From: a virus
Lineage: Duplodnaviria > Caudoviricetes
Direction: 5' to 3' (one strand)
Virus record (IMG/VR): IMGVR_UViG_3300030372_004273
Span: 1-62,355 of that record
Length of the DNA stretch: 62,355 nt
Shown in pieces: positions 1-62,355 of the stretch (positions are counted from its first letter, which is position 1; each line of letters starts with the position of its first letter). The translations under genes and the position numbers were made by a program. The notes under the pieces were generated by a model. It worked only from the letters and a program-made list of their open reading frames with translations, had not been told where the DNA came from and searched no databases.

Positions 1-1
1 C

Positions 2-78
2 TACTAAATTGCCAAAAAAATCATCTGGTTCTGGACTTACTTGTACAGACTCTTGCTCCTGTTCTTCTTCATCAGTCG
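2..78. repeat. 77-nt terminal direct repeat, copy 1 (assembly overlap of a circular or terminally redundant genome)
   Basis: TACTAAATTGCC...CATCAGTCG at 2-78 is identical to 62279-62355; base 1 (C) differs from 62278 (T). Confidence 0.95.
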
Positions 79-190
79 TTACATCTACTTCATAAAAAGC
101 ATCTTGTTGATCCTGTAGATCCATAATTTCAGCATCTGTTTCAGGAGCTCTATATAAAGCACGGTCAATGTTAGTTGGTTTCATAGCCAT
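2..190 (-). CDS. Portal protein, N-terminal 63 codons; continues across the junction into 62278..60122
   Basis: ATG at 190-188 overlaps the terL TGA; MAMKPTNIDRALYRAPETDAEIMD... stays in frame with the portal ORF after circularisation (781 aa in total). Confidence 0.88.
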   Translation of the reverse strand, partial: MAMKPTNIDRALYRAPETDAEIMDLQDQQDAFYEVDVTTDEEEQEQESVQVSPEPDDFFGNLV

Positions 191-1659: not shown

Positions 1660-1821
1660 AATTTTCTTATATATCGAAAATTTTCAAACGACAATGAACC
1701 TAATGAATTATTTTGAAAAAAGGGGTATACGATTTTAATAATTTTTTGATATACCACGAATCGCGGAAAACTTGCCACGCCCAAGGACATGGCTATGAAC
1801 GTCGTCAAAAATGGTGGGTAT

Positions 1822-1854
1822 AAAAAAAGGGCGTTAGGTGTTACCCTAACGCCC
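1822..1854 (-). terminator. Rho-independent terminator of the Asp/Glu-free gene
   Basis: Perfect 10-bp stem GGGCGTTAGG/CCTAACGCCC with a 6-nt loop, followed by T7 on the minus strand, just after the stop at 1868. Confidence 0.85.
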
Positions 1855-1867
1855 CCCAAGTACCTTT

Positions 1868-2781: not shown

Positions 2782-2789
2782 CGATAGTA

Positions 2790-3221
2790 CTAGCCTTTGA
2801 CAACTAGTTTGATGTATGGAGTCATCCAAGTTTTACTGCTTGGTGAGTATCCACCATGCATCAAAGCATGCAAGCAATTAGGACGTTTCTTAGAGTGACC
2901 AAGCTTGGCAGACTTATCAAGTATAAGCCTTAACGACATAGAGCCGTCAATCCCTCTAAGCATCCAATCTTGGATGGTTTGCCTGACACCTCCGGACTGT
3001 CCGCCATAACCAAAGGGGACAGGCTTTGGATCGTCAAGTTTTACATTGTCAAGAGGTTGGATGTAGACGTTCGCGTCGTTGCCTCCTGCATGCTCGTTGA
3101 CAAATTGCCACACGTCGTCATAAGACAACTCTTTATCGGTGACTAGGAGCTCAGCCTTTACAACTTGAGCTTTGGACTTTGGTGCAGTCTTGACAACTGC
3201 CTTAGTTGACTTTTTAGCCAT
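2790..3221 (-). CDS. Hypothetical protein of 143 aa; paralog of 1868..2338
   Basis: Likely start MAKKSTK at 3221 after AGAAAGGAG RBS; same conserved C-terminal blocks as the Asp/Glu-free protein. Confidence 0.88.
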   Translation of the reverse strand: MAKKSTKAVVKTAPKSKAQVVKAELLVTDKELSYDDVWQFVNEHAGGNDANVYIQPLDNVKLDDPKPVPFGYGGQSGGVRQTIQDWMLRGIDGSMSLRLILDKSAKLGHSKKRPNCLHALMHGGYSPSSKTWMTPYIKLVVKG

Positions 3222-3366
3222 ATCAATTCTCCTTTCTACGAGAATAGTGTAAATGCTTAATTGCAAGTACAAGTATAGAATAGCAAATAAAAAGTCCGGG
3301 AACAACAATAAAATGCTCCCCGATGATCTTTTTTTATCCCTGACATAGACAGTCAAGAAAAGAGAA

Positions 3367-7217: not shown

Positions 7218-7389
7218 ATACCTAGCCTGGTCAAGGAATATCCAAGTTCCTTGGTTTTTGGCAATTTTTGGCTTGTTTGATTAAAATTAAGACTGTTTTA
7301 AAGCCCTTCAGACAGTCACAAATGTGTTTTAGGTAGTAAACTAACCCAAAATATTTTGACTATTTTAGCTAAATTGATTGTTTTTGGTC

Positions 7390-10974: not shown

Positions 10975-11236
10975 TATCTTATTAATTCAGATGGTTCACC
11001 GTGATAGAGGACCTTTAAAACTCTATCACGGTTCGCCAACGTCTGCTTTCGTTGTATAGTTTTTCCGTGAATTTATAGGGCATGCCTTTGTGATAATCAC
11101 CCACTTTGCTTTCTATAGTTTTTCACAATGAACGGTGTGTCTCTTCACACATGGGGGGAGCGAAAAACAGAAAGATCCACAGCTCAGGTGAGACGCGTCT
11201 ATACAACTCGCCCCGAAAGGATTGATTATCTCCCCC

Positions 11237-13060: not shown

Positions 13061-14980
13061 CTATGTTTGCATGACAGAGTGATTATCTTTCAACCCTCGA
13101 GTCCAAGGTTTATCACTCAAAGTTTGTTTAGCTTCCCCCCAATTAGGACCAAGTTCAGCATCTACTATACTTGGTACTTCTAACTGGACACATTCCTGCA
13201 TAATTTCTTTTATTTGCAGACATTGTTTTTCATTTTCTACACTAACATCTAACTCATCGTGAACTTGTATCATGGGTGTAATACCCTCTTCGTGTAGAGC
13301 TACCATTGCTGATTTAGTTTGATCAGCGGCTGATCCTTGAATTAGTTTGTTGAGTGCTTTATATGTAAACGCTCGTTTGATTGCAGGACCATGTTCCGTG
13401 TACGCTTCTTGATATGACATAGGTTTCCATGAACCGTAGGCATTTGGCTCCCATTTATCAAATCTACATCTACGCCCAAGCAATGTTCTTATAACTCCTT
13501 TTTGTGTAGCACGATTAGTAGCATAATCGGATAAGGCTTTTACGAATGGGACCTTTTCGTGGTAGATAGCAAACAACTCTTTTGCATCTTCATATTCTAA
13601 TCCCAAGCTTGCTGAAAGTTTCTTGCTCCCCATACCATAAAACAAGCCGAGGTTAATATCTTTAGCTTGCTTGCGTGGGACACCTACAATGTCAGACGCC
13701 ATTTGATGAAAGTCTGTTAATGGGTCTATGTTATACTGCTCTGCAAACTTTTCTGCTCCTCTAAAATTCATTAGTTTTGCATAATGCACCACAAGGCGAG
13801 GTTCTTGGCTACTATAGTCAAATGCCCCCCATAGAGTGTCTTGTTCGGGTATAAATAAGCTACGAATTAGTGGACCAATTTCACCGTGTCGTGCAGGGAT
13901 TTGTTGTAAATTAGGATTACTGTAACTAAACCGACCAGTGACTGTGCCACCAGAATCACTACGCAAAGGATGTAACTCTGCATGAATGCGACCATTAACC
14001 TGATGTTTTAATATTGTATCTATAAAGGTAGTTCTTGCCTTGTTTAACTCCCTCGCTTCTACAATCATTTTAGGTAACTCATGTTCGTGGTTAGCTAAAA
14101 ATCCCTTTGTAAAACTAGGTGCTCCAGTTTTTTCTGTTTTACCATAAGTAAGACCTATTGAATCAAAACTTTTAGCTACACTTTCAGCAGACCATATTTC
14201 TACATTTACATCAGTTTTAGCTTTTATCTTTTTTAAAAGTTCTTGTTCTCTGTAATAAAGATTTGCCTTTACGTTTTCAGCTTTATTTAAATCAACCCTT
14301 ACACCCTTTGCCCTCATGGGTATAATTGTTTTGAGTACTTTTAGTTCTAAATCAAATATGTCCTGAATGTCCTCCTTTATTATAAGGGACTTAAATAACT
14401 TCCAAAGTTTTAGAGTTAATGAAGCATCTTTTTCTGCGTATGTTCCTACATGGTGAGCAGGAAGTTTCCACATCTCACTTTTATGGCTCACACCAAATGC
14501 TTCAGCGGCTTCTCTAAGTTCTACTTCTGATTTTTTCTCTTGTAGGTAATCTTTACCTAGCGAGTTAAGTGCATAGCTAAACCTATTTTCATCTAATAAA
14601 GGAGCAACCACCATAGTGTCTACTATTCTACCTTTTACATGGATATTATTAGCCAATAACCAACCGACGTCATACGGAGCATTGTGAAATACATAGTCAC
14701 GATCAATAGATACAAGGTCTCTAACCCATTCAAGTGTAAGCCTTTCATCTAAGTTAGGACCAATTTCATGTCGTATGGGAAAGTACCATTGTCCACCCTC
14801 TACAGCTACAGCTACACCTATTATATATCCATCTCTTCTAGCCCACCCTGAACCAAGCGTGGTTAGATTAGGGTCTTTAGTTTCTAAGTCTATAGCTACT
14901 TCTGTGTAACCTTTTAAATCTGGATAACCATCAGGCATTACCCATTCAGTAGGGGGTTGAAATAGGGGGAGTTGTCTCAT
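13061..14980 (-). CDS. polA: DNA polymerase family A with 3'-5' exonuclease
   Basis: ExoI DLET, ExoII HNAPYD, motif A DYSSQEPR, motif B KDINLGLFYG, motif C VHDEL. Confidence 0.95.
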   Translation of the reverse strand: MRQLPLFQPPTEWVMPDGYPDLKGYTEVAIDLETKDPNLTTLGSGWARRDGYIIGVAVAVEGGQWYFPIRHEIGPNLDERLTLEWVRDLVSIDRDYVFHNAPYDVGWLLANNIHVKGRIVDTMVVAPLLDENRFSYALNSLGKDYLQEKKSEVELREAAEAFGVSHKSEMWKLPAHHVGTYAEKDASLTLKLWKLFKSLIIKEDIQDIFDLELKVLKTIIPMRAKGVRVDLNKAENVKANLYYREQELLKKIKAKTDVNVEIWSAESVAKSFDSIGLTYGKTEKTGAPSFTKGFLANHEHELPKMIVEARELNKARTTFIDTILKHQVNGRIHAELHPLRSDSGGTVTGRFSYSNPNLQQIPARHGEIGPLIRSLFIPEQDTLWGAFDYSSQEPRLVVHYAKLMNFRGAEKFAEQYNIDPLTDFHQMASDIVGVPRKQAKDINLGLFYGMGSKKLSASLGLEYEDAKELFAIYHEKVPFVKALSDYATNRATQKGVIRTLLGRRCRFDKWEPNAYGSWKPMSYQEAYTEHGPAIKRAFTYKALNKLIQGSAADQTKSAMVALHEEGITPMIQVHDELDVSVENEKQCLQIKEIMQECVQLEVPSIVDAELGPNWGEAKQTLSDKPWTRGLKDNHSVMQT

Positions 14981-15128
14981 CTTTTTTCACTTTCATTGGT
15001 TTTTTACATTTACAAAAAATCCATTTGTTTTTCAGCCTACGAAAAGTTGTTACCTTACTCTCCAAGCCACAATCACAAACAGCTTTAACTTCTTTATCTA
15101 GTTTGTTTGGAATGTTTAGGGTAGTCAC
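14946..15128 (-). CDS. Small Cys-rich hypothetical protein
   Basis: CDCG...CKC; fills the gap between polA and the upstream gene. Confidence 0.5.
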   Translation of the reverse strand: MTTLNIPNKLDKEVKAVCDCGLESKVTTFRRLKNKWIFCKCKKPMKVKKDETTPPISTPY

Positions 15129-15429
15129 TAACTGTTCCTTGCCTAATTAACTCTGCTTCAACTAACATTAAATAACGCCTGAGATCACGCACATCGTCGA
15201 TAATACCTTCTTTACGTTTGTCGGCTTGGGCTGATTTAAATATATCGTAGTGTTTATCCTCTACTTGTTTTTCTAGCCTGTCCCATTTACGAGCAAGCAT
15301 CATAAAAGCACCTACACCTCCTCGTTGTTTCCAACTATCGCCGTAGCTTTGCTCAGACACATGTAGCCCTTCAACATCATACAAGGCTACTCTTTCTACA
15401 ATTTTAATAATTTCACTTGGGTTTTTCAC
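15094..15429 (-). CDS. Nucleotide-modification-associated all-alpha (MazG/DUF1599-like) putative dNTP pyrophosphatase
   Basis: SYGDSWK.RG...RKWDRLE...DDVRDL..Y helical motif; adjacent to the thymidylate synthase homolog. Confidence 0.65.
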   Translation of the reverse strand: MKNPSEIIKIVERVALYDVEGLHVSEQSYGDSWKQRGGVGAFMMLARKWDRLEKQVEDKHYDIFKSAQADKRKEGIIDDVRDLRRYLMLVEAELIRQGTVSDYPKHSKQTR

Positions 15430-16603
15430 TTTTTCTGCCTTTCTTTGGTTTTATTGGATCATATAACTTTCTAGTTATCCACTCTACGCAAGCTTTTCTC
15501 CACGCTAGATCTTTAATGCTCTTTGCTGATTCTAGTGCATGGTATCTACCTCCTTCCCAAGCTTCTTTGTGTACTTCTTTTTGGTGTCTGTTTAAAAACA
15601 AACCCCACTCTTCTTTTTCGAATGTTTCTTTTTTACTTTCATCCTTATAAAAAGTATGAATTTCTCTAAAGTCAGCCATCTTTGCTCTTTTGTAATTAAA
15701 GTAACATTCCAACATGGGGACAGCTACCTCAGAAAAAATAGAGTTTTCAAACTGTACCTTTTTTAATTCATCTAAAACATCATACGTTTCTTTATCGTCC
15801 CATATTTTGAAAAAAGTATTTAACTCATCATCAAAAGTTGTAAACGAATCCATTATAGGCATTGGGTTATAACTCGTACCATCTTCACCTAAAGTTAAGT
15901 AAGGCTCGTAGTCTGGTGGCATATCTTTTAATCTTTCTAGTATATCAACATAAGCGTGAAGATTATTACTAAATTGAGTATAAGTACCAACACCTAACTC
16001 TAACCTTCCTGCAAAGTATTCTTGAAGCATAGACATGTGAACAGCGTTTGCACCATACGCTCCCCAAATTAAATCATTACTACGATTTACTACTGTCATG
16101 TTAAGTAGGTCTTTTCTTTCACTAAAAAATATTTGAGTATTACATGGGTAGTCTTTACCATTGTTTGTTTCAACTAAATCTTTTACTGGATCCCACATTG
16201 TTAAAACTGTACGTCTGTCGTTTGGAAAAGAAAGCAACCTTTCTATTACTCTATCAAACTGATCATAGCCAAACCATTTTCTCCACCTATAACCATAAGC
16301 ACCATGATACGTTATACCATCGTCTGAGTATTGGTTCATGCGTCCATTAAAAGTATTTACAAACTGCACGTCATTACGTCCTGCTAACATCCATAAACTT
16401 TCCATAAAATGGAAAAAAGGGTTAGCGTCCCGTTGTGGATAAAACAATACTCTTTCTCTTGGGTGAGTATAAGTAGTGGTAACTGGACCAGGAAACTCTA
16501 AAACATCACCACCACGAGTACTTACAGCTACCCCATTCTCTTCTAAGGACTGTTTTACTACAAAAAGTGCTTCGCTTACGTTCCTAACATAAAAATTATA
16601 CAT
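15413..16603 (-). CDS. Thymidylate synthase-fold dUMP hydroxymethylase-like protein
   Basis: NPFFHFMESLWMLAGRND, GAYG.RWR, DYPCN catalytic Cys, RSNDLIWGAYGAN (Asn at the base-specificity position, indicating dUMP), NNLHAY, plus a C-terminal extension ending WRKACVEWI. Confidence 0.82.
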   Translation of the reverse strand: MYNFYVRNVSEALFVVKQSLEENGVAVSTRGGDVLEFPGPVTTTYTHPRERVLFYPQRDANPFFHFMESLWMLAGRNDVQFVNTFNGRMNQYSDDGITYHGAYGYRWRKWFGYDQFDRVIERLLSFPNDRRTVLTMWDPVKDLVETNNGKDYPCNTQIFFSERKDLLNMTVVNRSNDLIWGAYGANAVHMSMLQEYFAGRLELGVGTYTQFSNNLHAYVDILERLKDMPPDYEPYLTLGEDGTSYNPMPIMDSFTTFDDELNTFFKIWDDKETYDVLDELKKVQFENSIFSEVAVPMLECYFNYKRAKMADFREIHTFYKDESKKETFEKEEWGLFLNRHQKEVHKEAWEGGRYHALESAKSIKDLAWRKACVEWITRKLYDPIKPKKGRKSEKPK

Positions 16604-16682: not shown

Positions 16683-17990
16683 TTAAACGGAGTCATTTTT
16701 TGGCTCTATTGGGTCAATATTAAAAAACTGCAAGTTTTTATTACATTTTTGAAAAACTAGGTCATCTACTTCACCTTTGTCTGTTTTTTCATAACCACCA
16801 TTAATAAAGTCAATATATTTTTGTGCTACATTTACTTTATCAAACTGAGGTAAAATCTGTTTTCCGTTTTCTTGCAACTTTAACCACCTGACTTTTACTG
16901 TTACAGCATCGTCTACTATGTCTGCAAATTCTTGAGGAGTAGAATCGTGTGGTATTTGAATATAGTTTTGTTTATCACCCTGACTATGAAAAGGATGTTT
17001 TACTTTTTGAGATGAAGTTATCATACCTAAGTCTGTTGCCATTGGAACAGCACCACAAATAATCGCTTCTACAGTTGTTCTATTAAAATGGGATCCGAAC
17101 CCTGAATATTTAACCGACCAACTTGGATCAATTTGTACACGAGCGTTTTTTAAAATAGAAAAAACTTTTTCGTTTGGTAAAACTCCTGCATAATGCATTC
17201 CGTGTTCTAAAGCATTATCCCAAATACGAGTACCATCAGGTTCAAAGTACTTTTCTTTACACTTATCTTTACTTGTCATGTACCTATATTCAATCCCTGC
17301 TCCACCAACTATTTTGCTTTGCTCATTTTTCATATAAGAGATTGCTCTTACTAAAGTATCCATACGTTTCCAAGCTTTGAATATTTGTACTGCAACCAAA
17401 CCAGTCCTTTCTTCAAATGAATTTAAGTTTTCTTGGGTAACATCAAAAGGGTTACATATCATAGTGCGAGGTAAATCCATTTTAGCAGAAGATTCATAAG
17501 CTGAGTTATGTACACAAACAGAGCCGATAAAGTGTTTTGAAACTTTTGCTAAGTGAGGATACAAATGAGGTAAGTTACCATCATGTATGATAGCTATGTT
17601 TTTAGTTCCATTATCATAAAGTTCTAACCACTCCTTAACACCTTCATTATCTTTATTTAACGTAGGTACTGGAATATGCCAAAGGACAGCATCATACTTA
17701 CCCATATCATGCACAAAGTTTTTTCTATGGTAAGAACTTAGATATGGTATCTTTGGTACTCTAATCCAACCTCTTGCTTGGTGGTGTGGATATCCAGTAC
17801 CTTCAAGCTTTGTAGTGTATTCCCTTATATCTTTAGGTAGCTTTCGCATAGGAGTATACTTGTCTCTAGGGATAAGCATACGGAAATCAACTTCATGTCC
17901 TAACTCTTTTAGCCCTTGAGCTAAAAACTCTACATGATTTATAATACCACCATAATCTTGAATCTGATACATTGTCATAAGTATTCTCAT
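16683..17990 (-). CDS. GT-B fold glycosyltransferase (GT4-like), putative DNA-modifying
   Basis: MRILM...YGGI..H...LA.GL..LGHEV N-terminus; KAWKR.D.LVRA; TTVEAIICGAVPMATD donor-binding segment. Confidence 0.8.
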   Translation of the reverse strand: MRILMTMYQIQDYGGIINHVEFLAQGLKELGHEVDFRMLIPRDKYTPMRKLPKDIREYTTKLEGTGYPHHQARGWIRVPKIPYLSSYHRKNFVHDMGKYDAVLWHIPVPTLNKDNEGVKEWLELYDNGTKNIAIIHDGNLPHLYPHLAKVSKHFIGSVCVHNSAYESSAKMDLPRTMICNPFDVTQENLNSFEERTGLVAVQIFKAWKRMDTLVRAISYMKNEQSKIVGGAGIEYRYMTSKDKCKEKYFEPDGTRIWDNALEHGMHYAGVLPNEKVFSILKNARVQIDPSWSVKYSGFGSHFNRTTVEAIICGAVPMATDLGMITSSQKVKHPFHSQGDKQNYIQIPHDSTPQEFADIVDDAVTVKVRWLKLQENGKQILPQFDKVNVAQKYIDFINGGYEKTDKGEVDDLVFQKCNKNLQFFNIDPIEPKNDSV

Positions 17991-18910
17991 AGTACTGCTC
18001 CCTCAGGTGGTTTTTGGAAAAGGTCATCTTGCTTACCATTATATCTACTTCGTGGTTTACCCTCCCCATTTTTTACTCGTATATACTTATCAAACTCACA
18101 AAGGCTATGTTCAATGGTTCGCATATCTACTTGGTCTTTTGGACCAAACCTAAAAGGCAAATGATCTTGAGCTTCGTATAATAGAGTTTGCATTTCTAAG
18201 TTAGCTTGAGTTTGTGAAAGCGACTTTTTTAAATCTCTCTTGTATAACCTATTCAGTCCCCTCTTTGCTCCTGGTCCTGCGTTAGCCCAAGTATAACGGT
18301 CTTTTGCCGTCCCCAAAACAGACGTGTAGTTGAGGTCGGTAACGACTTCGTATGACATAAAGCCTCCCCCTCCCCATCCCCTAAACTTACCCATCGCTTC
18401 ATGCGTGGCTTGTAACGACTGCGTTTCTTGGGATACCTTCGCCAGATCTTCTTTCGCTTTCCATATCGGGATGAGAAACTCATCTACAACAACCTCAGAT
18501 TTAGGTTTCTTTATACCTTGATTAGTAATTATATATGCTCCAGTAAAAGTTCGTAAACCTTCGTGTAACCTTTTTTCTAAAATAAATTTAGTTGATTCAG
18601 GTTCCCAATCTTTTACCCAACCATGCTCTTCAGCAAACTCACTTGTACCTATCATTCTAAACAAACAACAGTTAAATATAATTTCAGCAGGAGGACGATT
18701 GTCATTTGGTTTAGTCCAGTTCTGACGCATCCAAACTGTTACCCTATCATTTTCCCTAAACGGATTTGTAAATTTATAATCCCTTAATATGGGGTCGTAA
18801 GTCCAAGGAGGAGGCTTTCCTGCACTCCTCACTTTGAACATGTTATGGCGTTCATCTATCCAATAGAAAAACTTTTCAACCATACTTTCATCTAATAACT
18901 CACTAACCAT
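17987..18910 (-). CDS. 5hmdU DNA kinase-like protein (aGPT-Pplase1, helical glycosylase-like fold)
   Basis: FFYWIDERH...PPPWTYDPILRDYKFTNPFRENDRVT, FTGAYII, FMSYEVVTDL, GPGAKRGL, IEHSLCEFDKY.R. Confidence 0.85.
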   Translation of the reverse strand: MVSELLDESMVEKFFYWIDERHNMFKVRSAGKPPPWTYDPILRDYKFTNPFRENDRVTVWMRQNWTKPNDNRPPAEIIFNCCLFRMIGTSEFAEEHGWVKDWEPESTKFILEKRLHEGLRTFTGAYIITNQGIKKPKSEVVVDEFLIPIWKAKEDLAKVSQETQSLQATHEAMGKFRGWGGGGFMSYEVVTDLNYTSVLGTAKDRYTWANAGPGAKRGLNRLYKRDLKKSLSQTQANLEMQTLLYEAQDHLPFRFGPKDQVDMRTIEHSLCEFDKYIRVKNGEGKPRSRYNGKQDDLFQKPPEGAVL

Positions 18911-19541
18911 TTGCAGGACGCAACTCTATAGCTTTAGCTTCTATAGCTATCTTAACATCTTTTAAACTTCCAGGAGAAGGATTTAAGTTTCTTAGCTTAT
19001 CTAAAGCTTCTGCCAAGTTTTTAGATTCTAGTATTACTTGTTGGTTGCGATGTCTGTTAGTGCCAACTTTAGGAGTTGGCTCCTTTACCAAAGCTACAAT
19101 TACATCGCTAGGATCAAACCCATTACTACTCTTGGGTTGAGTTACTTTTGGTTTTTCTTCATTTACTTCCATTTTGTTCTCCACAATTTGATTGATATAT
19201 TGGTCTGAATATAGTTTTGCTTTTTTCTTTACGAGTGAATGTAAAGCCAAGCATGAAGTATTATGGTTAGGGAATCCTTTATTATTGTCCCATCTACCAC
19301 CTTCTATTTCGGCACAATCCTTCAGACCAAAGGACTGCCAAATAGAATCAATTAATTCTTTGCTATAATTTTCTTTTAAACTTTCAAGGCTATCGTCGTT
19401 GTACACAACTAGATTACAAAGCATTTCTGGATGAGCCAATACACCCATCGCTTTAGAAGCTACTCGTAAATCTTTAAATTTATAAAACAAAAAAGGTGGA
19501 CCATCACTTCCTGGAACACCATCGCTAATAACATAAAACAT
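18903..19541 (-). CDS. Hypothetical protein heading the modification operon
   Basis: Likely start MFYVISDG at 19541 after GAAAGGG; overlaps the kinase-like gene. Confidence 0.7.
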   Translation of the reverse strand: MFYVISDGVPGSDGPPFLFYKFKDLRVASKAMGVLAHPEMLCNLVVYNDDSLESLKENYSKELIDSIWQSFGLKDCAEIEGGRWDNNKGFPNHNTSCLALHSLVKKKAKLYSDQYINQIVENKMEVNEEKPKVTQPKSSNGFDPSDVIVALVKEPTPKVGTNRHRNQQVILESKNLAEALDKLRNLNPSPGSLKDVKIAIEAKAIELRPANG

Positions 19542-19570
19542 ATATTTCCCTTTCTTTGGAAAATTAAGTA

Positions 19571-19597
19571 ATGCCCCTATTCTAATAATAGGGGCAT
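19571..19597. terminator. Stem-loop after the DUF932 gene (terminator or processing site)
   Basis: Perfect 11-bp stem ATGCCCCTATT/AATAGGGGCAT. Confidence 0.6.
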
Positions 19598-19618
19598 CAC
19601 AGGACAACAGTTATTTTA

Positions 19619-43402: not shown

Positions 43403-45066
43403 GCTTCCTCCAGTGCTTTAACTTTGGCTTCTAGTGTTTCTATTCTTGTCATTGCTTCTTGTAAGGCTTTAACTGCTTTCATGTAAAGAATACTATCTTT
43501 AACATTTTTAACATTTGACTTTACTTCTTTAACATCACCATCTTCATTTAAAGTTCCAAACTCCGAACTATGTTTTATTTCTTGTGCTTCTGGTGGAGTT
43601 TCAAAAACTAAATTAGGACAAACTTTTTCTACATCTTGTGCAACTAAACCTAGCTGTTTTAAATCTGGATTATCAAATTTAGTAAAGTTCTTAAACTTTA
43701 ATGCCTTTATATCTTCCCATTGTGATTTAGCATCTACTATATCAGACTTTAATCTTTCATCAGAAAATGAAGTATAAGTTCCAGTTGAGTTTTTAAGTGT
43801 TCCACTAGAAAATATTTTCATCCTACCATTACCTTGTGAAACACATGATAGAAAATAGTTGTCAGTATTATTTACGTTTACATTTGGAAATTCTATGTAA
43901 ACTCCATAAGGTGCTGAACTATGAAGATTTTGAAAATATTGTGCTACTGAATTTCTTGTGTTTTTAAAAATTGAATATTCATTTAAAATAGAAGCTATTG
44001 TAGTAAGAGTTGCATTTTGTCCTGCATTTACGTTTGCTGAATATTGATAATGAAAAACTCCAGAAGTATCTATATTAATAGCACTACCAGCACCATTTTC
44101 TTTAGCTACCCAACTACTTCCATTATAGTATCTATTTTTAACTATGTATAAAGAACCACCATCATACTCACCATAAAATGCTTGATCACCTACATCTACA
44201 CCTTTCATATTTGTGTCGTGTGAATAGGTAGCACCATTTTCAACACCAATACCATTAGCTGTAGTTTCTAATTTTTTAACATCATCATAGTAAAGACTAA
44301 CTGCACCATCAGCTACAGCATTTATCATGGTTTCTCCAGTATACTTGTGCATAGTTACTCGGCTACTTCTTATAAATAAAGAACCATCATCAGCTTCATC
44401 TATAAATGAACCAGTACCAGGAGTATGATATATCTGTAAATCATTACCAGTGCCTACTTTAATTTTAGCATTATCCGGAAGGTTAACCCCACCACTATGA
44501 GTTGTAGCTCCAGTAAAAGTTCCACCAGTGCTAGCAGGGACTGTGTCAGCTAATTGTACTGTATTATATGCTAATACAACCAACTCATCACTTGTTGTAG
44601 CTCCTGATCCTAATACAACAGAAGTACCATTCGTAGCTGTGTAGTCTGTTTGATCTAAACGCACCCCATTTAAAAATACATCAATATCTTCAACAGTATA
44701 AGAAAGTGTTAAACCATTAGAGTCTTCTCCTGAAAAAGTTTGCTGACCATTAGTAGCTACGTATCTATATCGTATAATTCTTTTATAATTAGTAGCAACA
44801 TCAACAGACCTACCTAAATAACGTATAATAATATTATCACCGTTTGCAGGAGGTCCAGTGAAAGTAATTGTATTACCAGAAGCTGTATAAGCTCCTGCTA
44901 TACCTTGATGAGTAGGTTGTTGAACAACATTACCAACTAATACAATTATACTTTGACCATCAGGAACTGTTTGGTCTAATGTAAAACTTGTAGCAGAACC
45001 ATTTGCACTCGTTATAATTTGAGTTGCTACTGTTCCTGCGTTTGGTGATACTCCTATATATGCCAT
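43399..45066 (-). CDS. Tail fibre with peptidase S74 chaperone
   Basis: MAYIG.SP start; DVFLNGVRL..TDYTATNGTSV; SDERLKSDI...LGLVAQDVE...RIETLE. Confidence 0.85.
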   Translation of the reverse strand: MAYIGVSPNAGTVATQIITSANGSATSFTLDQTVPDGQSIIVLVGNVVQQPTHQGIAGAYTASGNTITFTGPPANGDNIIIRYLGRSVDVATNYKRIIRYRYVATNGQQTFSGEDSNGLTLSYTVEDIDVFLNGVRLDQTDYTATNGTSVVLGSGATTSDELVVLAYNTVQLADTVPASTGGTFTGATTHSGGVNLPDNAKIKVGTGNDLQIYHTPGTGSFIDEADDGSLFIRSSRVTMHKYTGETMINAVADGAVSLYYDDVKKLETTANGIGVENGATYSHDTNMKGVDVGDQAFYGEYDGGSLYIVKNRYYNGSSWVAKENGAGSAINIDTSGVFHYQYSANVNAGQNATLTTIASILNEYSIFKNTRNSVAQYFQNLHSSAPYGVYIEFPNVNVNNTDNYFLSCVSQGNGRMKIFSSGTLKNSTGTYTSFSDERLKSDIVDAKSQWEDIKALKFKNFTKFDNPDLKQLGLVAQDVEKVCPNLVFETPPEAQEIKHSSEFGTLNEDGDVKEVKSNVKNVKDSILYMKAVKALQEAMTRIETLEAKVKALEEA

Positions 45067-58580: not shown

Positions 58581-58769
58581 TTACTCTTTTTTCGGAACCG
58601 ATTTAGGAACGCAATAAGCTTTAACCCAAATTTTGCTGTCCCCTGCGAGGGAAGGGTCATAGTTTTGTGACCTAATTTTCTGTGCAACTCTAAGACACGC
58701 GTCCAAATCACTGAAATAGACACTTTCTTGCACCGTTCCTGATAAAAATACAACTAAGAGCCATGTCAT
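58581..58769 (-). CDS. Small protein with hydrophobic N-terminus and a Cys pair
   Basis: MTWLLVVFL...F.....C...AYCVP. Confidence 0.65.
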   Translation of the reverse strand: MTWLLVVFLSGTVQESVYFSDLDACLRVAQKIRSQNYDPSLAGDSKIWVKAYCVPKSVPKKE

Positions 58770-59095: not shown

Positions 59096-59367
59096 TAGAA
59101 AACTCCGGAAAACTTAGTCCCTCTAATCGCGGCTCCTGTCCCACGCATAACGTTTTTAGTTTTCTTCTTTTTCTTTTTAAGTATTTCTCCACCCTTTGGG
59201 CTTCCTTTACTTCTCATTCTTATTTTTCTACCCATAACTTCTCCTTCTTGTGGTTGATTACCAAAATGCAATTGAATCATTGCATCAATTTCCATTACTT
59301 TATCCATGTCTCCTGCTTCTTGTGCAAATTTTCTTTCTTCTATAAGCATATCTAAGTTACTTGACAT
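59095..59367 (-). CDS. Hypothetical protein with basic C-terminus
   Basis: RGTGAAIRGTKFSGVF end; AAGGAG RBS. Confidence 0.7.
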   Translation of the reverse strand: MSSNLDMLIEERKFAQEAGDMDKVMEIDAMIQLHFGNQPQEGEVMGRKIRMRSKGSPKGGEILKKKKKKTKNVMRGTGAAIRGTKFSGVF

Positions 59368-59378
59368 TTATTTCTCCT

Positions 59379-60122
59379 TTACTTGGGAACACCCATTATA
59401 CGTTGTAATGCAATTAACGGACTTTCGTAAGCCCTGTTTCTTAGTGTAGAAGCAACTCCCGTTTTAAATAAAGGACTTGTTTCATCTACTCCTGCATAGC
59501 CTAATGATCTCATAACATTTGCGTATGGATTATTGGTTACTATACCCTCTACCATATTGCTTGGATTTTGGTAAATATTATCTATAAATTCTTGTGCTGT
59601 AGCAGGAGGATTATAACCTTCCAAAGTAATAACATTTCTTATAGGGTTTCCAGTTTTATCTGTACTACCTACATTGATATTACCAGTTCCATAACGTTGA
59701 GCATTGAGAGCAGATTGTAATAACGCTCCCTCGTTTTGTTGCAAAAATTCTGGCAACTTATGTTTCGGTCCATATAAAGCAGTGCCTAAACTAAACGGTC
59801 CTTTATCTAAAGTGAAACCCTGTATTCCATCAATTGAAAATTCTTTGCCATATAAATCTTTGTTAGGTATAGTTACATTTCTATCACCACTTCCAGAGGG
59901 CATAAGACTAGCTATACCTTTTTTTATTTTGCTAAGAATGTTTTCTTTTTGCAAAGCTTCTTTAGGAACTTGGTCTTGCATCATACTTGCAAATTCTTTT
60001 TTCTTATCTTTTGTAAGTATGTTTTTATCTCTAGTTTTTTTAGTGGCGATTGTGCCTTTACCACCTTTTTTATCTTTTACTACACCATCGTCAGTTGAAA
60101 TAGTCCCACTAAAAGTGACCAT
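59379..60122 (-). CDS. Hypothetical protein
   Basis: 247 aa; TAATG-coupled to the portal gene. Confidence 0.7.
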   Translation of the reverse strand: MVTFSGTISTDDGVVKDKKGGKGTIATKKTRDKNILTKDKKKEFASMMQDQVPKEALQKENILSKIKKGIASLMPSGSGDRNVTIPNKDLYGKEFSIDGIQGFTLDKGPFSLGTALYGPKHKLPEFLQQNEGALLQSALNAQRYGTGNINVGSTDKTGNPIRNVITLEGYNPPATAQEFIDNIYQNPSNMVEGIVTNNPYANVMRSLGYAGVDETSPLFKTGVASTLRNRAYESPLIALQRIMGVPK

Positions 60123-62278
60123 TATTTGTTACCTCCGTGTGCTTGTTGAGTTCTTTCCATTGCTATCTTAGCTCTCATTTCAGCTATATCTTCAGTGCTA
60201 TCTATTCTTTCTTTTTGAACTCCAACGTTTTCTTGCTGTTTTACTTTATCAAAATTTAAACGCATTTGATCTAACTGTTGATTAGCCACATTGTCTTGTT
60301 CTCTTATAGCTAACTCTTGTTTTTTGATTTCAACTAACGGATCACTGTTTGGTTGTGGTGGATACTGTTGTTGATATTCAGCAATTAACTCTGCTTGTTT
60401 TCTAGCTATGCTAGACTGCATCGCCATTTGCACTTGTGGGTTTTTCATATCAGCTTGACCCATTTCCTGTTGCACCATATTTTGAGCCTTTAATGTTAAA
60501 TGTTCATAAACATGATTTTCTAAAGTAGTAGCTATCTGTGGTTGCAAAGTACTTGCTTTTGATAACATGTATGCCTGATGTACTGCAATATGTGCATCAT
60601 GGTCTTGTTCAGGAAAAGCTTTCAATTCACCTTGCCCTATAATTACTTTCATGATTTCATTGTTTTCTGTTCCAGGATCTTTTGGCTGTGGTGGATTAGG
60701 TGGTGTTAATATTTGATCAATTTGATCTACACCTAATGCTTCATACATTCTACGATAAGACTCATACATATTGTGCATTTGAGGGCTTGCTTGAGCTAAC
60801 TTCAACTGCTCTTGAGCAAGCACTACCCTTTGTGACATACTAAAAATATTAGGATCACTTACTGGAATTACATCAATGCGTGGGTCAAAATCTTGAGCCT
60901 TGATTGAAGGATCAGCCCCCACGTCATAAGGATAAGGAGTTGGGTCTTCTGCAAAAAGAGTAGCAATCATTTTAAGTTCTAACTTCAAACTTGCATGTAA
61001 TCGTTTATGTATTGCACTGATTATCCGTGAACCACGCTCCAATAATGCTATTGTTGTTCCAACTGGCATCTCTTGTCTGCCATCGCCTACACCTATCTCG
61101 CTTGTACCAACAAACTTTTCTGCAGAGCCAACAACAAAACCCATCAACTGAAACAATGTTGCACTCGGCTCTTTATAAGGTAAAGGTATCAAACTACTTT
61201 TTAAATCACCTCCTGGAACATCAACATCTCTAAACTCTCCTGGCTGTAACGGATCAGAATCATCTGCTATACGCAAACCCCTCGCTTTAAATCCTGCAGG
61301 CATATTTGCGAGTGTTCCTGCATCTATCAACTGACGCAAATTAGCTGTTGCTGTTCTAGATAAATTACCCAACAAGTGAATCAAACCAAAACCATAAAAC
61401 CCTAATCCTGGAGTAAACTTGTACTGCACAAAATGTGGGATTTTATTTTTCATAGTATCTTCAGGTGAATAGTTTCTACGAATAGAAAGTACTTGTTCCG
61501 TGTCTACACAAACTGTTATTATGTATGGTAGCTTAATTTCGTTTTCGTCAGGGAACTCTTCTAAGTTAAAATAACAATGACATTCATATAAAGTATAATC
61601 TTGGCTTCTGTCACTAGGATCACGACCTTCTAAGTCATCATACTTTTCTTGTATTTCAGTATCAGATCTACTTGCAGAACCAGTTAATTCCATATCAGCA
61701 TATACACCACTCACTTGAAGTTTGCGTAGCTCGTTTTCTGATATTTTAATTACATGCGTTACTCTTTCTGCTGATTTTAAATCAGTTGCTGAGTAGCTTA
61801 CCAATATATCTTCTGATGTTATGAATTTACTTACAGGACGGTTTAGGGAAGTATCGCGATATACTTTTTTAAAAGCACTTCCTGCCAAACCTAAAAAATA
61901 GAGCATTTGGTCATACTCTGGCTCATACTCTTCCATGTTATACATAATTTGATAATTCAAATATTCTTGTACTCGTTGAGCTTGTTGTTCTAACATTGGA
62001 TTAGCTGTGCCAATTATCTGAGCTCTAACTGGTCCACTAGAAGGCAAAAGTTCCTTGTACGCTTGAGCTTGAAACTGAGTTACTGCTTCGTTTAAAATTG
62101 GATGTGTTACACCAGTTGCTCCATCAAAAGGCTCTGTACGGTTTTCGTATTTTAAACCAAGTAAATCTAAACCACGAGTATACGAATCTTCCCAATCTTT
62201 ACGGCTTGCTCTATCCTCTTCTGCATTAGTAAGAACATAAGAAGAAACTTCGTCAAGCGTAGAATCGGAAACACTATT
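60122..62278 (-). CDS. Portal protein, main part (begins at 190 across the junction)
   Basis: SRKDWE...GLDLLGLK...HPILNEAV.QFQAQAYKELLP, GSAFKKVY, GFYGFGLIH, RQLIDAGTL.N.PAGFK; follows terL. Confidence 0.9.
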   Translation of the reverse strand, partial: NSVSDSTLDEVSSYVLTNAEEDRASRKDWEDSYTRGLDLLGLKYENRTEPFDGATGVTHPILNEAVTQFQAQAYKELLPSSGPVRAQIIGTANPMLEQQAQRVQEYLNYQIMYNMEEYEPEYDQMLYFLGLAGSAFKKVYRDTSLNRPVSKFITSEDILVSYSATDLKSAERVTHVIKISENELRKLQVSGVYADMELTGSASRSDTEIQEKYDDLEGRDPSDRSQDYTLYECHCYFNLEEFPDENEIKLPYIITVCVDTEQVLSIRRNYSPEDTMKNKIPHFVQYKFTPGLGFYGFGLIHLLGNLSRTATANLRQLIDAGTLANMPAGFKARGLRIADDSDPLQPGEFRDVDVPGGDLKSSLIPLPYKEPSATLFQLMGFVVGSAEKFVGTSEIGVGDGRQEMPVGTTIALLERGSRIISAIHKRLHASLKLELKMIATLFAEDPTPYPYDVGADPSIKAQDFDPRIDVIPVSDPNIFSMSQRVVLAQEQLKLAQASPQMHNMYESYRRMYEALGVDQIDQILTPPNPPQPKDPGTENNEIMKVIIGQGELKAFPEQDHDAHIAVHQAYMLSKASTLQPQIATTLENHVYEHLTLKAQNMVQQEMGQADMKNPQVQMAMQSSIARKQAELIAEYQQQYPPQPNSDPLVEIKKQELAIREQDNVANQQLDQMRLNFDKVKQQENVGVQKERIDSTEDIAEMRAKIAMERTQQAHGGNK

Positions 62279-62355
62279 TACTAAATTGCCAAAAAAATCA
62301 TCTGGTTCTGGACTTACTTGTACAGACTCTTGCTCCTGTTCTTCTTCATCAGTCG
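62279..62355. repeat. 77-nt terminal direct repeat, copy 2
   Basis: Identical to positions 2-78. Confidence 0.95.

What the first reader, a model, noticed from the sequence alone, without database searches (positions are those of the whole stretch)
1..62355. C-initial restriction palindromes survive almost only when fused to a TC/GA step
Seen, by eye and not exhaustive: all four CCGG I found are TCCGG (near 2991, 3295, 44474, 59104). About two dozen CGCG are TCGCG or CGCGA, with exceptions near 11194 and 58698. Roughly forty CCWGG are TCCWGG or CCWGGA, with one exception near 7226. GATC, which contains TC on both strands, is common, while GGCC and GCGC look scarce. Chance would give a flanking T or A only a little over half the time. 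Inference: a bulky group at TpC shields the overlapping site, so only shielded sites are tolerated. This is independent, genome-wide support for a TC-context modification.
Basis: partly seen in the sequence, partly recalled or inferred. Interest (0 to 1): 0.8.

Follow-up and report, generated by a model that had tools for sequence, protein, structure and literature searches.

The report
Restriction sites survive only beside TC
In this marine phage, short restriction-type words such as CCWGG remain only where a T sits directly in front of them; relatives with the same thymine-hypermodification genes share this and relatives without them do not, which suggests a modified base at the TC step protects the DNA.

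Summary
The window is a complete 62,355-bp marine phage genome. It has 0 GGCC and 0 GCGC. All 4 CCGG, 25 of 27 CGCG and 39 of 40 CCWGG have a 5' T or 3' A. A shuffle preserving codons and amino acids expects 56%, 55% and 65%; none of 200-300 shuffles came close. The rule also covers non-palindromes: CAGG without such a flank is 43 against 134 expected.

The phage carries a thymidylate-synthase-like / glycosyltransferase / 5-hmdU DNA kinase cassette. Five whole related contigs with that kinase have 0 unflanked CCWGG (109 expected). Singly flanked sites are 65 (107 expected) and doubly flanked 113 (26 expected). Three syntenic relatives without the cassette match the null. Unmodified T7 and SPP1 lose CCWGG whatever the flank.

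Caveats:
- T7 and SPP1 show the same CCGG flank pattern without any modification, so CCGG is not diagnostic.
- GATC is depleted, not common, and so are TCGA and the TC step itself.
- QueC (deazaguanine) phages give the same signature, so sequence alone cannot tell T of TpC from G of GpA.

Best reading (about 0.55): TpC-specific thymidine hypermodification shields abutting sites.

The parts
1..62355 (.). Genome-wide word signature. C-initial G+C-rich words (CCWGG, CCGG, CGCG, CAGG and others) are kept only when a T precedes or an A follows. GGCC and GCGC are absent.
2992..2995 (.). CCGG site 1 of 4, context TCCGGA.
3296..3299 (.). CCGG site 2 of 4, context TCCGGG (T on one side only).
44475..44478 (.). 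CCGG site 3 of 4, context TCCGGA.
59105..59108 (.). CCGG site 4 of 4, context TCCGGA.
7226..7230 (.). The only unflanked CCWGG of 40 (GCCTGGT).
11194..11197 (.). Unflanked CGCG, exception 1 of 2 (ACGCGT).
58698..58701 (.). Unflanked CGCG, exception 2 of 2 (ACGCGT).
15413..16603 (-). Thymidylate-synthase-like protein, 396 aa. Presumed dUMP hydroxymethylase that supplies 5-hmdU; this function is inferred.
   Evidence: Pfam PF00303 3.2e-18. PHROG 5131 1.2e-106. Far below NCBIfam equivalog cut-offs. Homologs sit beside the kinase in the marine cassette contigs, M6 and SP10; in ViI and phiW-14 they lie elsewhere in the genome.
16683..17990 (-). GT4-family (GT-B) glycosyltransferase, 435 aa, between the synthase-like gene and the kinase. 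Candidate for adding a sugar to the base.
   Evidence: Pfam Glyco_transf_4 only at E=0.017, below cut-off. Atlas neighbours are viral Glycos_transf_1 and T4 AGT-like clusters at 0.98-0.99. 246 homologs, many carrying PF00534/PF13692/PF13439. A homolog is present only in G004 and G005 among the relatives examined.
17987..18910 (-). 5-hmdU DNA kinase (5-HMUDK), 307 aa. Presumed to set the sequence context of the modification.
   Evidence: Pfam PF18723 5.7e-53. 22 related viral loci at 57-99% identity. 37-38% identity to the M6-group kinase.
18903..19607 (-). Cassette ORF of 234 aa with no recognised family.
   Evidence: No Pfam, PHROG or NCBIfam match. Atlas best score 0.76, a lead only.
19619..20662 (-). 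DUF932 / TIGR03299 protein, 347 aa, conserved in all cassette-bearing relatives.
   Evidence: Pfam PF06067 1.3e-46. TIGR03299 2.2e-69. 64-78% identity in relatives.
15094..15429 (-). Small cassette ORF (111 aa) shared with most cassette-bearing relatives.
   Evidence: 57-69% identity in 9 of 11 marine relatives examined. No family.
13061..14980 (-). Family A DNA polymerase. It borders the cassette on one side.
   Evidence: Pfam. In cassette-less 023Pt_psg01, DSL-LC04 and HTVC027P the polymerase lies within about 0.6 kb of the helicase, separated by at most three small ORFs.
21044..22564 (-). UvrD-type helicase. It borders the cassette on the other side.
   Evidence: Pfam. Synteny.

Best explanation
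The phage replaces thymidine with 5-hydroxymethyl-dU. Its 5-hmdU DNA kinase then marks a subset of these residues for a bulky group, and in this lineage a GT-B glycosyltransferase gene lies in the cassette. The genome record implies that the marked residues are those followed by C (TpC). A modified T directly abutting a C-initial recognition word (TCCWGG, TCCGG, TCGCG, TCAGG, TCCTG) blocks the host nucleases that read that word. Copies without such a T were purged by selection. G-initial words (GGCC, GCGC, GCWGC) cannot be abutted by a TpC step and were purged completely, even at the cost of avoiding Ala-Ala in proteins.

Shown: the word statistics, their link to the cassette-bearing clade, their absence from cassette-less relatives, and the absence of CCWGG flank rescue in the unmodified controls.

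Inferred: that the base is T and not G, that the context is set by the kinase, and that the agents of selection are restriction enzymes.
For: 1. **The flank bias survives the codon null.** Window unflanked against null: CCWGG 1 / 16.5, CGCG 2 / 12.7, CCGG 0 / 13.0. Flanked: 39 / 30.3, 25 / 15.4, 4 / 16.2.
2. **It acts at the DNA level.** CCAGGA is 21 sense and 17 antisense. Ala-Gly is GCA GGA in 108 of 125 cases although GCT and GGT are the commonest codons. All 10 GCC-GCG Ala-Ala pairs are followed by an A-initial codon.
3. **It covers asymmetric words.** V-CAGG-B is 43 / 134.6 while flanked CAGG is 343 / 218.4.
4. **The unbiased scan picks T|C.** The scan takes cores depleted below 0.3 unless preceded by base X. 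T|C accounts for 8 of 14 hits in the window, plus 2 G|A (a T inside the word followed by C). It accounts for 10 of 16 in one sub-clade and 4 of 7 in the other loci. A|C scored 0 in all three sets, and there were no hits at all in the cassette-less relatives.
5. **Cassette-bearing relatives share the CCWGG rule.** In 11 dereplicated kinase-bearing loci, unflanked CCWGG is 1 / 58.0 and flanked 67 / 73.3. Unflanked CCGG is 2 / 71.2 and flanked 40 / 78.1. In five whole contigs, unflanked CCWGG is 0/26, 0/20, 0/20, 0/20 and 0/23.
6. **There is a dose effect in G001-5.** With 0, 1 and 2 flanks, CCWGG is 0/109.0, 65/106.8 and 113/25.7. In the window it is 1/16.2, 16/22.4 and 23/8.2.
7. **Cassette-less syntenic relatives match the null**.
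8. **Unmodified controls show no CCWGG rescue.** T7 + SPP1 give 1/41.7, 2/39.7 and 0/9.5. SPO1, with plain 5-hmU, gives 0.36, 0.42 and 0.41.
9. **T/A still matters among C/G-flanked CCGG in the marine contigs.** 12 / 22.7 with a T/A partner against 2 / 43.4 without (binomial p 1e-4).
10. **The rule follows the shared genes.** The kinase and the synthase-like gene are shared by the clade, while the genes between them vary; the glycosyltransferase is found only in the window, G004 and G005.
11. **No rival modification genes were found.** No QueC, TGT, C5 or N6/N4 methyltransferase was detected. No protein resembles those of three deazaguanine phages except the polymerase, helicases, primase and SNF2.
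12. **Literature.** Hypermodification is reported to be dinucleotide-specific: TG or TC in M6, ViI and phiW-14, and TG more than TC in phage 15599. A flanking modified T was suggested to protect G+C-only sites (PMC6449724 section 10 and passages; PMC13458397 passages and section 46).
13. **Other hypermodifying phages.** The same scan gives T|G in SP10 (T|GGCC 54/70 against 26/152). In M6 it gives T inside the word followed by G (AGCT|G 125/77 against 17/86).
Against: 1. **TC-containing words are depleted, not protected.**
 - Window: TCGA 19 / 82.5, GATC 131 / 186, GCCTC 7 / 48, TCCAGC 4 / 31.
 - Pooled cassette loci: GAATTC 7 / 43.
 - The TC/GA dinucleotide is low: 21,783 / 23,296 (z -29) in the pooled loci and z -9.4 in the window.
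 - By contrast TG/CA is enriched in phiW-14 and ViI.
2. **The proposed modified T lies outside the recognition word.** A block from outside is less certain than one from inside.
3. **QueC phages give a similar CCWGG signature.** Me-ZS1 is 17/56.2 flanked against 2/60.6 unflanked, and VpKK5 is 14/49.9 against 2/58.2. A group on G of GpA would fit the counts equally well.
4. **The CCGG flank pattern occurs without modification.** It is seen in T7 and SPP1. In ViI, T-flanked CCSGG is not rescued (2 / 42.8).
5. **The comparison is phylogenetically thin.** The cassette-bearing contigs form one clade (polymerase 70-79% identical, against 52-57% for the cassette-less relatives). Cassette presence therefore changes only once among the genomes compared, and the hosts may differ as well.
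6. **No chemistry.** No read-level or chemical data on the DNA were available; the public runs are held as contigs only.
Confidence: 0.55

Rival explanations
1. No modification is involved. The pattern is the sum of avoidance of several host restriction enzymes whose recognition sequences include flanking positions or are degenerate (for example R-CCGG-Y types), so that T- or A-flanked copies are simply not sites.
For: - Unmodified T7: CCGG unflanked 8 / 43.9, flanked 50 / 49.8.
- SPP1: R..Y class 0 / 32.1 while C/G-flanked copies are 69 / 39.4.
- SPO1: R..Y class 3 / 33.8.
- SPP1 and SPO1 keep GATC mainly when it is T/A-flanked: 84/75.9 against 28/78.0, and 255/222.7 against 52/203.5. This fits R-GATC-Y-type enzymes (enzyme type recalled).
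- In the marine loci that keep GGCC, the hexamers TGGCCA (0 / 54) and AGGCCT (4 / 46) are the ones removed (both-strand tallies). Hexamer-specific avoidance therefore does occur.
Against: - For CCWGG every class without T/A is empty in G001-5 (R..Y 0 / 64.4, C/G-flanked 0 / 44.6), while T/A classes are not depleted (18 / 20.4 and 160 / 112.1).
- An enzyme reading plain CCWGG would remove all classes, as in T7 and SPP1.
- Asymmetric V-CAGG-B, T|CCCGT, T|CGGGT, T|CGGTT and others would each need an unusual V...B specificity.
- The dose effect, with a 4.4-fold excess of TCCWGGA, is not predicted.
Confidence: 0.15
2. The protecting group sits on G of GpA, that is, inside CCWGG-A, CCGG-A and CAGG-A. 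It would be put there by an unrecognised guanine-modifying activity, not on T of TpC.
For: - TC and GA are the same step, so all the word counts fit equally.
- Phages with QueC show T/A-flank rescue of CCWGG.
- A strict GA motif is reported for dPreQ0 in phage iggy (abstract seen in the listing).
- A group inside the site explains blocking more easily.
- The Pfam TGT model missed DpdA in all three QueC phages, so its silence on the window is weak evidence.
- Two cassette ORFs have no known family.
Against: - No QueC.
- No protein similar to any Que or DpdA protein of VpKK5, Me-ZS1 or Pan1 at blastp E<1e-3.
- The only recognisable modification genes are the synthase-like gene and the 5-hmdU DNA kinase, which act on the thymidine position.
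- The rule tracks those genes across the clade.
Confidence: 0.12
3. TCCWGGA and TCCTGC are positively selected functional motifs, for example binding sites for a phage or host protein. The flank bias would reflect gain of these motifs and not protection of sites.
For: - TCCWGGA is 4.4-fold over the null in G001-5 and 2.8-fold in the window.
- GCAGGA/TCCTGC occurs 150 times against 38.2 expected.
Against: - It does not explain the complete loss of unflanked copies or of GGCC and GCGC.
- The GCAGGA excess follows from avoiding GCTGG (8 / 77) and GCAGGT (4 / 33) at Ala-Gly codon pairs.
- Many unrelated words show the same T|C dependence.
Confidence: 0.05
4. Codon usage or codon-pair preference in translation (for example Pro-Gly as CCA GGA) creates the bias.
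For: Many of the sites lie at Pro-Gly or Ala-Gly codon pairs.
Against: - The null keeps amino-acid order and codon usage, and still does not reproduce the bias.
- The motif is as common antisense as sense (CCAGGA 17 against 21; TCAGGT 24 against 24).
- Relatives with similar G+C content and no cassette show nothing.
Confidence: 0.02

Closest known systems
Dinucleotide-specific thymidine hypermodification in phages M6, ViI, phiW-14 and SH-Ab 15599 (5-hmdU DNA kinase pathway)
   Same: - The window has a thymidylate-synthase-like gene plus a 5-HMUDK.
- The literature reports partial, context-specific modification at TG and/or TC.
- It also suggests that a modified T flanking a G+C-only site may protect it (PMC6449724; PMC13458397).
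   Different: - Here the inferred context is TpC and not TG. TGGCC and TGCGC are absent (0 / 25.8 and 0 / 25.5).
- No aGPT-Pplase-type transferase was recognised in the cassette; a GT4 glycosyltransferase sits there instead.
- The evidence is the genome's own word record, not restriction digests.
- No chemistry is known for this phage.
7-deazaguanine (dPreQ0 / dG+) DNA modification with a GA motif in Queuovirinae-type phages
   Same: It acts at the same TC/GA step and leaves the same kind of flank signature for CCWGG in the QueC-bearing Me-ZS1 and VpKK5.
   Different: - The window has no QueC and no homolog of those phages' modification proteins.
- Rescue is partial in those phages (ratio about 0.3) but complete in the marine clade.
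Classical restriction-site (palindrome) avoidance in phage genomes
   Same: Complete or strong loss of GGCC, GCGC, CCGG, GCWGC and TCGA against a codon null. The unmodified controls T7, SPP1 and SPO1 show the ordinary form.
   Different: - Avoidance here depends on one flanking base, with a dose effect.
- It reaches asymmetric words.
- It reaches into protein sequence: Ala-Ala is 22 against 101-102 expected.

Membership tests
5-hmdU-derived thymidine hypermodification system | 5-hmdU DNA kinase (HMUDK) gene | tested here: met
   PF18723 5.7e-53 over residues 9-283 of the 307-aa product of 17987-18910. PHROG 2396 1.2e-55.
5-hmdU-derived thymidine hypermodification system | Thymidylate-synthase-family dUMP hydroxymethylase | tested here: inconclusive
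   Family membership is clear (PF00303 3.2e-18; PHROG 5131 1.2e-106). Scores are far below every NCBIfam thymidylate synthase cut-off. Hydroxymethylase versus methylase activity was not tested.
5-hmdU-derived thymidine hypermodification system | Transferase that replaces the phosphate (aGPT-Pplase type) | tested here: not met
   No such Pfam, PHROG or NCBIfam match among the cassette ORFs that were scanned. A GT4 glycosyltransferase and a 234-aa orphan are present instead.
5-hmdU-derived thymidine hypermodification system | Non-canonical thymidine derivative in virion DNA | not testable with these tools
   Needs LC-MS. Public runs holding the phage are kept as contigs only.
Context-specific (TS) hypermodification that shields restriction sites | Sites overlapping the modified dinucleotide are spared while others are purged | tested here: met
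   CCWGG with 0, 1 and 2 flanks: window 1/16.2, 16/22.4, 23/8.2; G001-5 0/109, 65/106.8, 113/25.7. T|C dominates the unbiased scan.
Context-specific (TS) hypermodification that shields restriction sites | Sites containing the modified dinucleotide internally are protected | tested here: not met
   TCGA is 19 / 82.5 and GATC 131 / 186. GCCTC is 7 / 48. GAATTC is 7 / 43 in pooled relatives.
7-deazaguanine DNA modification | preQ0 synthesis genes (QueC) and DpdA transglycosylase | tested here: not met
   No QueC and no TGT (a weak test: the same model also missed DpdA in the three QueC phages). No blastp match to modification proteins of three QueC phages.
Methyltransferase-based self-protection | C5 or N6/N4 DNA methyltransferase gene | tested here: not met
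   PF00145 and PF01555 give no match in the whole genome.

The most novel reading that the evidence does not exclude
A clade of widespread marine phages has a 5-hmdU DNA kinase with TpC specificity, unlike the TG preference reported for M6 and phage 15599. A hypermodified T lying just outside a recognition sequence is enough to block restriction. Because of this, the dinucleotide target of a phage's DNA hypermodification can be read from its genome alone. The read-out is which flanking base 'rescues' otherwise purged words: T|C in this clade, T|G in SP10, T-before-G inside words in M6, and the GA step in QueC phages.
Probability: 0.45. Interest if true: 0.75.

Novelty: new variant of a known kind. 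Interest (0 to 1): 0.62.

Why it matters
[quoted passage not shown] Later work inferred TG or TC from restriction digests of a few cultured phages.

If the reading here holds, three things follow:
- It gives a sequence-only way to infer the target motif for uncultured phages.
- It points to a TpC-specific kinase lineage, with a glycosyltransferase partner, in phages whose cassette stretch is held, at least in part, by 20 listed marine metagenome runs from 16 studies.
- It shows how far restriction pressure can reshape a genome. The pressure reaches protein sequence: Ala-Ala is cut to a fifth of its expected number.

It also warns that flank patterns at CCGG alone can mislead, since unmodified T7 shows them.

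Tried and rejected
- **Megablast** of 20 kb of the window against the phage collection found nothing. Relatives were reached by protein search instead.
- **First negative controls failed as controls.** Me-ZS1, Pan1 and VpKK5, taken from the polymerase hit list, all carry QueC. They were reclassified as deazaguanine phages, and T7, SPP1 and SPO1 were fetched as true controls.
- **ViI as validation was withdrawn.** I first read the ViI result (CCGG unflanked 8 / 172, flanked 227 / 196) as independent support. Unmodified T7 shows the same pattern, and in ViI the T-flanked CCSGG class is not rescued.
- **Abutting targets idea kept only as a remark.** I considered that the palindrome made of two abutting targets is specifically counter-selected: TCGA here (19 / 82), and TGCA in M6 (32 / 134). 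SPO1, which has no kinase, also has TCGA at 89 / 274.
- **TC depletion as a general mark of the target motif was rejected.** TG/CA is enriched in phiW-14 and ViI.
- **The Pfam TGT model** found nothing in the three QueC phages, so its negative result on the window is weak.
- **Read-level evidence was not obtainable.** All 24 listed runs are kept as contigs.
- **Literature searches** returned no paper, judged from the listed titles and abstract openings, that describes a flank-dependent survival of restriction words in hypermodified phages. The library lacks most subscription journals.
- **Arbitrary thresholds.** The rescue scan used ratio <0.3 against >0.6 and an expected count of at least 12. 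Other thresholds were not explored.
- **Rows dropped.** Of the 22 kinase-bearing loci, 11 were left out of the null-model analysis as near-duplicates by shared 13-mers: L005, L006, L008, L011, L014, L015, L016, L018, L020, L025 and L026. Their raw counts are and agree. G001-G005 contain L007, L013, L021, L024 and L010, so they are not independent of those loci.

Full report
**What the window is.** The 62,355 bases are a whole virus record, 35.8% G+C, with 78 of 87 called ORFs on the minus strand. It encodes:
- a large and a small terminase,
- a family A DNA polymerase, a UvrD-type helicase, an AEP primase and an SNF2 helicase,
- Pam3 gp33/gp34-like proteins and an AlkB-type 2OG oxygenase.

The nearest polymerases belong to seawater phage 023Pt_psg01 (57%), lake phage DSL-LC04 (54%) and Pelagibacter phages HTVC027P and HTVC023P (52% and 50%). 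M6-like Pseudomonas phages are at about 39%. A 9.9-kb stretch is held, at least in part, by 20 listed marine metagenome runs from 16 studies.

**The cassette.** Between the polymerase (13061-14980) and the helicase (21044-22564) lie seven ORFs:
- a 111-aa ORF,
- a thymidylate-synthase-like protein (15413-16603; PF00303 3.2e-18, PHROG 5131 1.2e-106),
- a 435-aa protein (16683-17990),
- a 5-hmdU DNA kinase (17987-18910; PF18723 5.7e-53),
- a 234-aa orphan,
- a DUF932/TIGR03299 protein,
- a 95-aa ORF.

The 435-aa protein is a GT4-type glycosyltransferase:
- Pfam gives only a weak hint (E=0.017).
- Its Atlas neighbours are viral Glycos_transf_1 and T4 alpha-glucosyltransferase-like clusters at 0.98-0.99.
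- Many of its 246 homologs carry PF00534, PF13692 or PF13439.

In 023Pt_psg01, DSL-LC04 and HTVC027P the helicase lies within about 0.6 kb of the polymerase, separated by at most three small ORFs and with no such cassette. No QueC, TGT, C5 or N6/N4 methyltransferase was found in the window.

**Checking the observation.**
- 4 CCGG, all TCCGG, 3 of them TCCGGA.
- 27 CGCG, 25 flanked, with exceptions at 11194 and 58698.
- 40 CCWGG, 39 flanked, with the exception at 7226.
- GGCC and GCGC are not scarce but absent.

I shuffled synonymous codons within each ORF, keeping protein sequences and codon usage, 300 times.

| Word | Observed | Null mean |
|---|---|---|
| GGCC | 0 | 33.8 |
| GCGC | 0 | 41.2 |
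| CCGG | 4 | 29.1 |
| TCGA | 19 | 82.5 |
| GATC | 131 | 186.0 |

Total CGCG (27 / 28.0) and CCWGG (40 / 46.8) are close to the null. The flanked and unflanked classes move in opposite directions: unflanked 2 / 12.7 and 1 / 16.5, flanked 25 / 15.4 and 39 / 30.3. No shuffle came near these values.

**The rule is wider than palindromes.**

*Depleted and enriched words:*

| Word | Observed | Null |
|---|---|---|
| CCAGC/GCTGG | 8 | 77 |
| GCAGC/GCTGC | 1 | 24.5 |
| GAGGC/GCCTC | 7 | 48 |
| CCGC/GCGG | 29 | 78 |
| ACCTG/CAGGT | 60 | 129 |
| GCAGGA/TCCTGC | 150 | 38.2 (z 22) |
| CAGGA/TCCTG | 254 | 144 |

*The CAGG flank table.* CAGG preceded by A, C or G and followed by C, G or T is 43 against 134.6. 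T-preceded or A-followed CAGG is 343 against 218.4.

*Codon pairs.* Ala-Gly is written GCA GGA in 108 of 125 cases although GCT and GGT are the preferred codons. The alternatives contain GCTGG or GCAGGT.

*Ala-Ala.* It always contains GCNGC, and it occurs 22 times against 101-102 expected from amino-acid frequencies. Ten of the 22 are GCC GCG, and all ten are followed by a codon starting with A, giving TCGCGGC on the other strand. This accounts for most of the TCGCGG excess (17 / 4.0). The CGCG flank rule in this genome is therefore real, but it is tied to GCNGC avoidance.

*Strand.* The motifs occur on both strands relative to the genes: CCAGGA is 21 sense and 17 antisense, TCAGGT 24 and 24. 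Translation-level codon-pair preference is therefore not the cause.

**An unbiased scan.** For every 4- or 5-base core and every 5' base X, I asked two things. Is the core depleted below 0.3 of the null when preceded by the other three bases? Is it kept above 0.6 when preceded by X (expected counts at least 12 and 4)? Both strands are counted, so X|core also stands for the complementary 3' flank.

| Set | Hits (5-base cores) | T\|C | A\|C | Notes |
|---|---|---|---|---|
| Window | 14 | 8 | 0 | CAGGT, CCCGT, CCGGA, CCTGG, CGCCT, CGGGT, CGGTA, CGGTT; 2 more are G\|A, a T inside the word followed by C |
| Sub-clade L012, L021, L022, L023 | 16 | 10 | 0 | includes T\|CCAGC 32/16.1 against 2/32.7 |
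| Other seven loci | 7 | 4 | 0 | – |
| 023Pt_psg01 + HTVC027P | 0 | 0 | 0 | no hits at all |

**Relatives with and without the cassette.** A search with the kinase found 22 viral contig loci at 57-99% identity. In raw counts, 114 of their 115 CCWGG are flanked. After removing near-duplicates, 11 loci were tested against their own codon nulls.

| Class (11 loci) | Observed | Null |
|---|---|---|
| CCWGG unflanked | 1 | 58.0 |
| CCWGG flanked | 67 | 73.3 |
| CCGG unflanked | 2 | 71.2 |
| CCGG flanked | 40 | 78.1 |

Five whole contigs, G001-G005 (52-60 kb), give unflanked CCWGG of 0/26, 0/20, 0/20, 0/20 and 0/23. Unflanked CCGG is 0/36, 2/31, 1/17, 0/24 and 0/25.

The three cassette-less relatives sit on the null for every statistic. 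For example, 023Pt_psg01 has CCWGG unflanked 40 / 34.9, CCGG unflanked 31 / 26.6 and GGCC 68 / 48.7.

*What is shared and what is not.* GGCC and GCGC are lost in only some cassette lineages, and the CAGG and CGCG rules are confined to the window's sub-lineage. The shared core is therefore the CCWGG and CCGG flank rule. The genes shared by the clade are the synthase-like gene (not seen in the L023 fragment), the kinase, DUF932 and two small ORFs. The glycosyltransferase is present only in the window, G004 and G005. The rule follows the kinase, not the final group.

*Caveat.* The cassette-bearing contigs are one clade (polymerase 70-79% identical to the window's, against 52-57% for the cassette-less relatives). 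Cassette presence therefore changes only once among the genomes compared, and the hosts may differ.

**Dose effect.** CCWGG by number of T-5'/A-3' flanks, observed / null:

| Set | 0 flanks | 1 flank | 2 flanks |
|---|---|---|---|
| Window | 1 / 16.2 | 16 / 22.4 | 23 / 8.2 |
| G001-5 | 0 / 109.0 | 65 / 106.8 | 113 / 25.7 |
| Cassette-less relatives | 74 / 66.2 | 74 / 64.3 | 17 / 16.4 |

**Controls, including results against my first reading.**

*Known hypermodifying phages:*
- ViI: CCGG unflanked 8 / 172, flanked 227 / 196.
- Acinetobacter phage 15599: 30 of 32 CCGG flanked. Its paper says the host has an HpaII homolog (section 46 read).
- SP10: T|GGCC 54/70 against 26/152, plus T|GGACC, T|GGTCC and T|GGCCG.
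- M6: words ending in T are kept when G follows, for example AGCT|G 125/77 against 17/86. This matches the report that the M6 kinase modifies TG (PMC6449724 section 10).

*Unmodified phages undercut part of this:*
- T7 has the same CCGG pattern: 8 / 43.9 unflanked, 50 / 49.8 flanked.
- SPP1 lacks R-CCGG-Y entirely (0 / 32.1) while keeping C/G-flanked copies (69 / 39.4).

The CCGG flank rule can therefore arise from enzymes that read R-CCGG-Y (enzyme type recalled), and ViI fits that model. In the marine contigs the C/G-flanked classes are empty too (2 / 43.4) unless a T/A sits on the other side (12 / 22.7; p 1e-4). The enzyme model does not predict this.

*CCWGG is the clean case:*
- T7 and SPP1 lose it in all flank classes (1/41.7, 2/39.7, 0/9.5).
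- SPO1, with plain 5-hmU, shows no flank effect (0.36, 0.42, 0.41).

*The accidental controls.* Me-ZS1, Pan1 and VpKK5 all carry QueC and no kinase. Me-ZS1 and VpKK5 show partial T/A-flank rescue of CCWGG: 17/56.2 against 2/60.6, and 14/49.9 against 2/58.2. A GA-step guanine modification, reported for phage iggy (abstract in the listing), would explain that. It also shows that word counts cannot say which strand's base carries the group. In the window no protein resembles those phages' modification proteins.

**What does not fit.**
- If T of TpC carries a protective group, words that contain TC should be safe. Yet TCGA, GATC, GCCTC, TCTC/GAGA (220 / 352), ATTC/GAAT and GAATTC are depleted in the cassette clade.
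- The TC/GA step itself is depleted: 21,783 / 23,296, z -29 in the pooled loci. The cassette-less relatives give z -2.4.
- Pairs of TC steps are low at nearly all spacings.

Possible reasons are hosts with modification-dependent nucleases, a cost of dense modification, or incomplete modification at crowded targets. None of these was tested. TCGA depletion is not specific to the clade, since SPO1 has 89 / 274.

**Comparison with the literature.**
- Lee et al. 2018 state that the exact motifs were not known (passage).
- Lee et al. 2021 say that 5-hmdU is converted in sequence-specific contexts (passage).
- Flodman et al. 2019 found TG/TC in resistant sites of M6, ViI and phiW-14. They speculated that a flanking T (tGCCGGC) may protect G+C-only sites (section 10 and passages).
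- The 2026 paper on phage 15599 reports TG, and to a lesser extent TC (passages and section 46).

I found no paper, judged from the listed titles and abstract openings, that describes flank-dependent survival of restriction words as a genomic signature. The library lacks most subscription journals, and supplements were closed.

**Verdict.** A modification at the TC/GA step that shields abutting sites is the best explanation (about 0.55). From gene content, the base is most likely T of TpC. The chemistry is unknown, TC-containing words behave against simple expectation, and the CCGG part of the evidence is not diagnostic.

Noticed in passing
window 1-62355 (all ORFs): The Ala-Ala dipeptide occurs 22 times against 101-102 expected from amino-acid frequencies. 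In relative G003 it is 34 against 97. In all ten other genomes examined the ratio is 0.96-1.31. Avoidance of GCNGC appears to reach into protein sequence.
   Followed up: partly
window 1-62355: GCAGGA/TCCTGC occurs 150 times against 38 expected (z 22). 108 of 125 Ala-Gly pairs are GCA GGA. This is explained as the only encoding that avoids GCTGG, GCAGGT, CCGG and GCGG.
   Followed up: yes
window and loci L007-L024, G001-G005: TCGA, GATC, TCTC/GAGA, ATTC/GAAT, AATT and GAATTC, and the TC/GA dinucleotide as a whole, are depleted in cassette-bearing phages but not in cassette-less relatives. This is unexplained and runs against simple protection at TC.
   Followed up: partly
L100-L101 (T7), L102-L104 (SPP1), L105-L111 (SPO1): Unmodified T7 keeps CCGG only when it is T/A-flanked (8/43.9 unflanked, 50/49.8 flanked). 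SPP1 has 0 of 32 expected R-CCGG-Y. SPP1 and SPO1 keep GATC mainly when it is T/A-flanked. Degenerate R...Y enzyme specificities can mimic a flank 'rescue'.
   Followed up: partly
L087-L089 (Me-ZS1), L094-L096 (VpKK5), L090-L093 (Pan1): All three polymerase relatives carry QueC, although the Pfam TGT model finds nothing in them. Me-ZS1 and VpKK5 have purged CCWGG (19/117 and 16/108), and the survivors are almost all T/A-flanked. This fits a GA-step guanine modification.
   Followed up: partly
L033-L035 (M6), L059-L066 (SP10): In M6, TGCA is 32 against 134 expected, and AGCT survives mainly as AGCTG. In SP10, GGCC and GGWCC survive mainly when T-preceded. These are possible genomic read-outs of TG-specific hypermodification.
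   Followed up: partly
G001-G005, between the synthase-like gene and the kinase: The genes between the synthase-like gene and the kinase differ among lineages. The GT4 glycosyltransferase is found only in the window, G004 and G005. Different final groups may therefore be built on a shared kinase step.
   Followed up: no
loci L007, L009, L010, L013, L017 (pooled): In lineages that keep GGCC, the hexamers TGGCCA (0 against 54; both-strand tallies) and AGGCCT (4 against 46) are removed, while TGGCCT/AGGCCA is kept (52 against 58). This looks like ordinary hexamer-specific avoidance.
   Followed up: no
window:13000-22900: The cassette stretch is held, at least in part, by 20 listed public marine metagenome runs from 16 studies (11 hold half of its sampled words or more). 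The phage type is therefore widespread. All runs are kept as contigs only.
   Followed up: no
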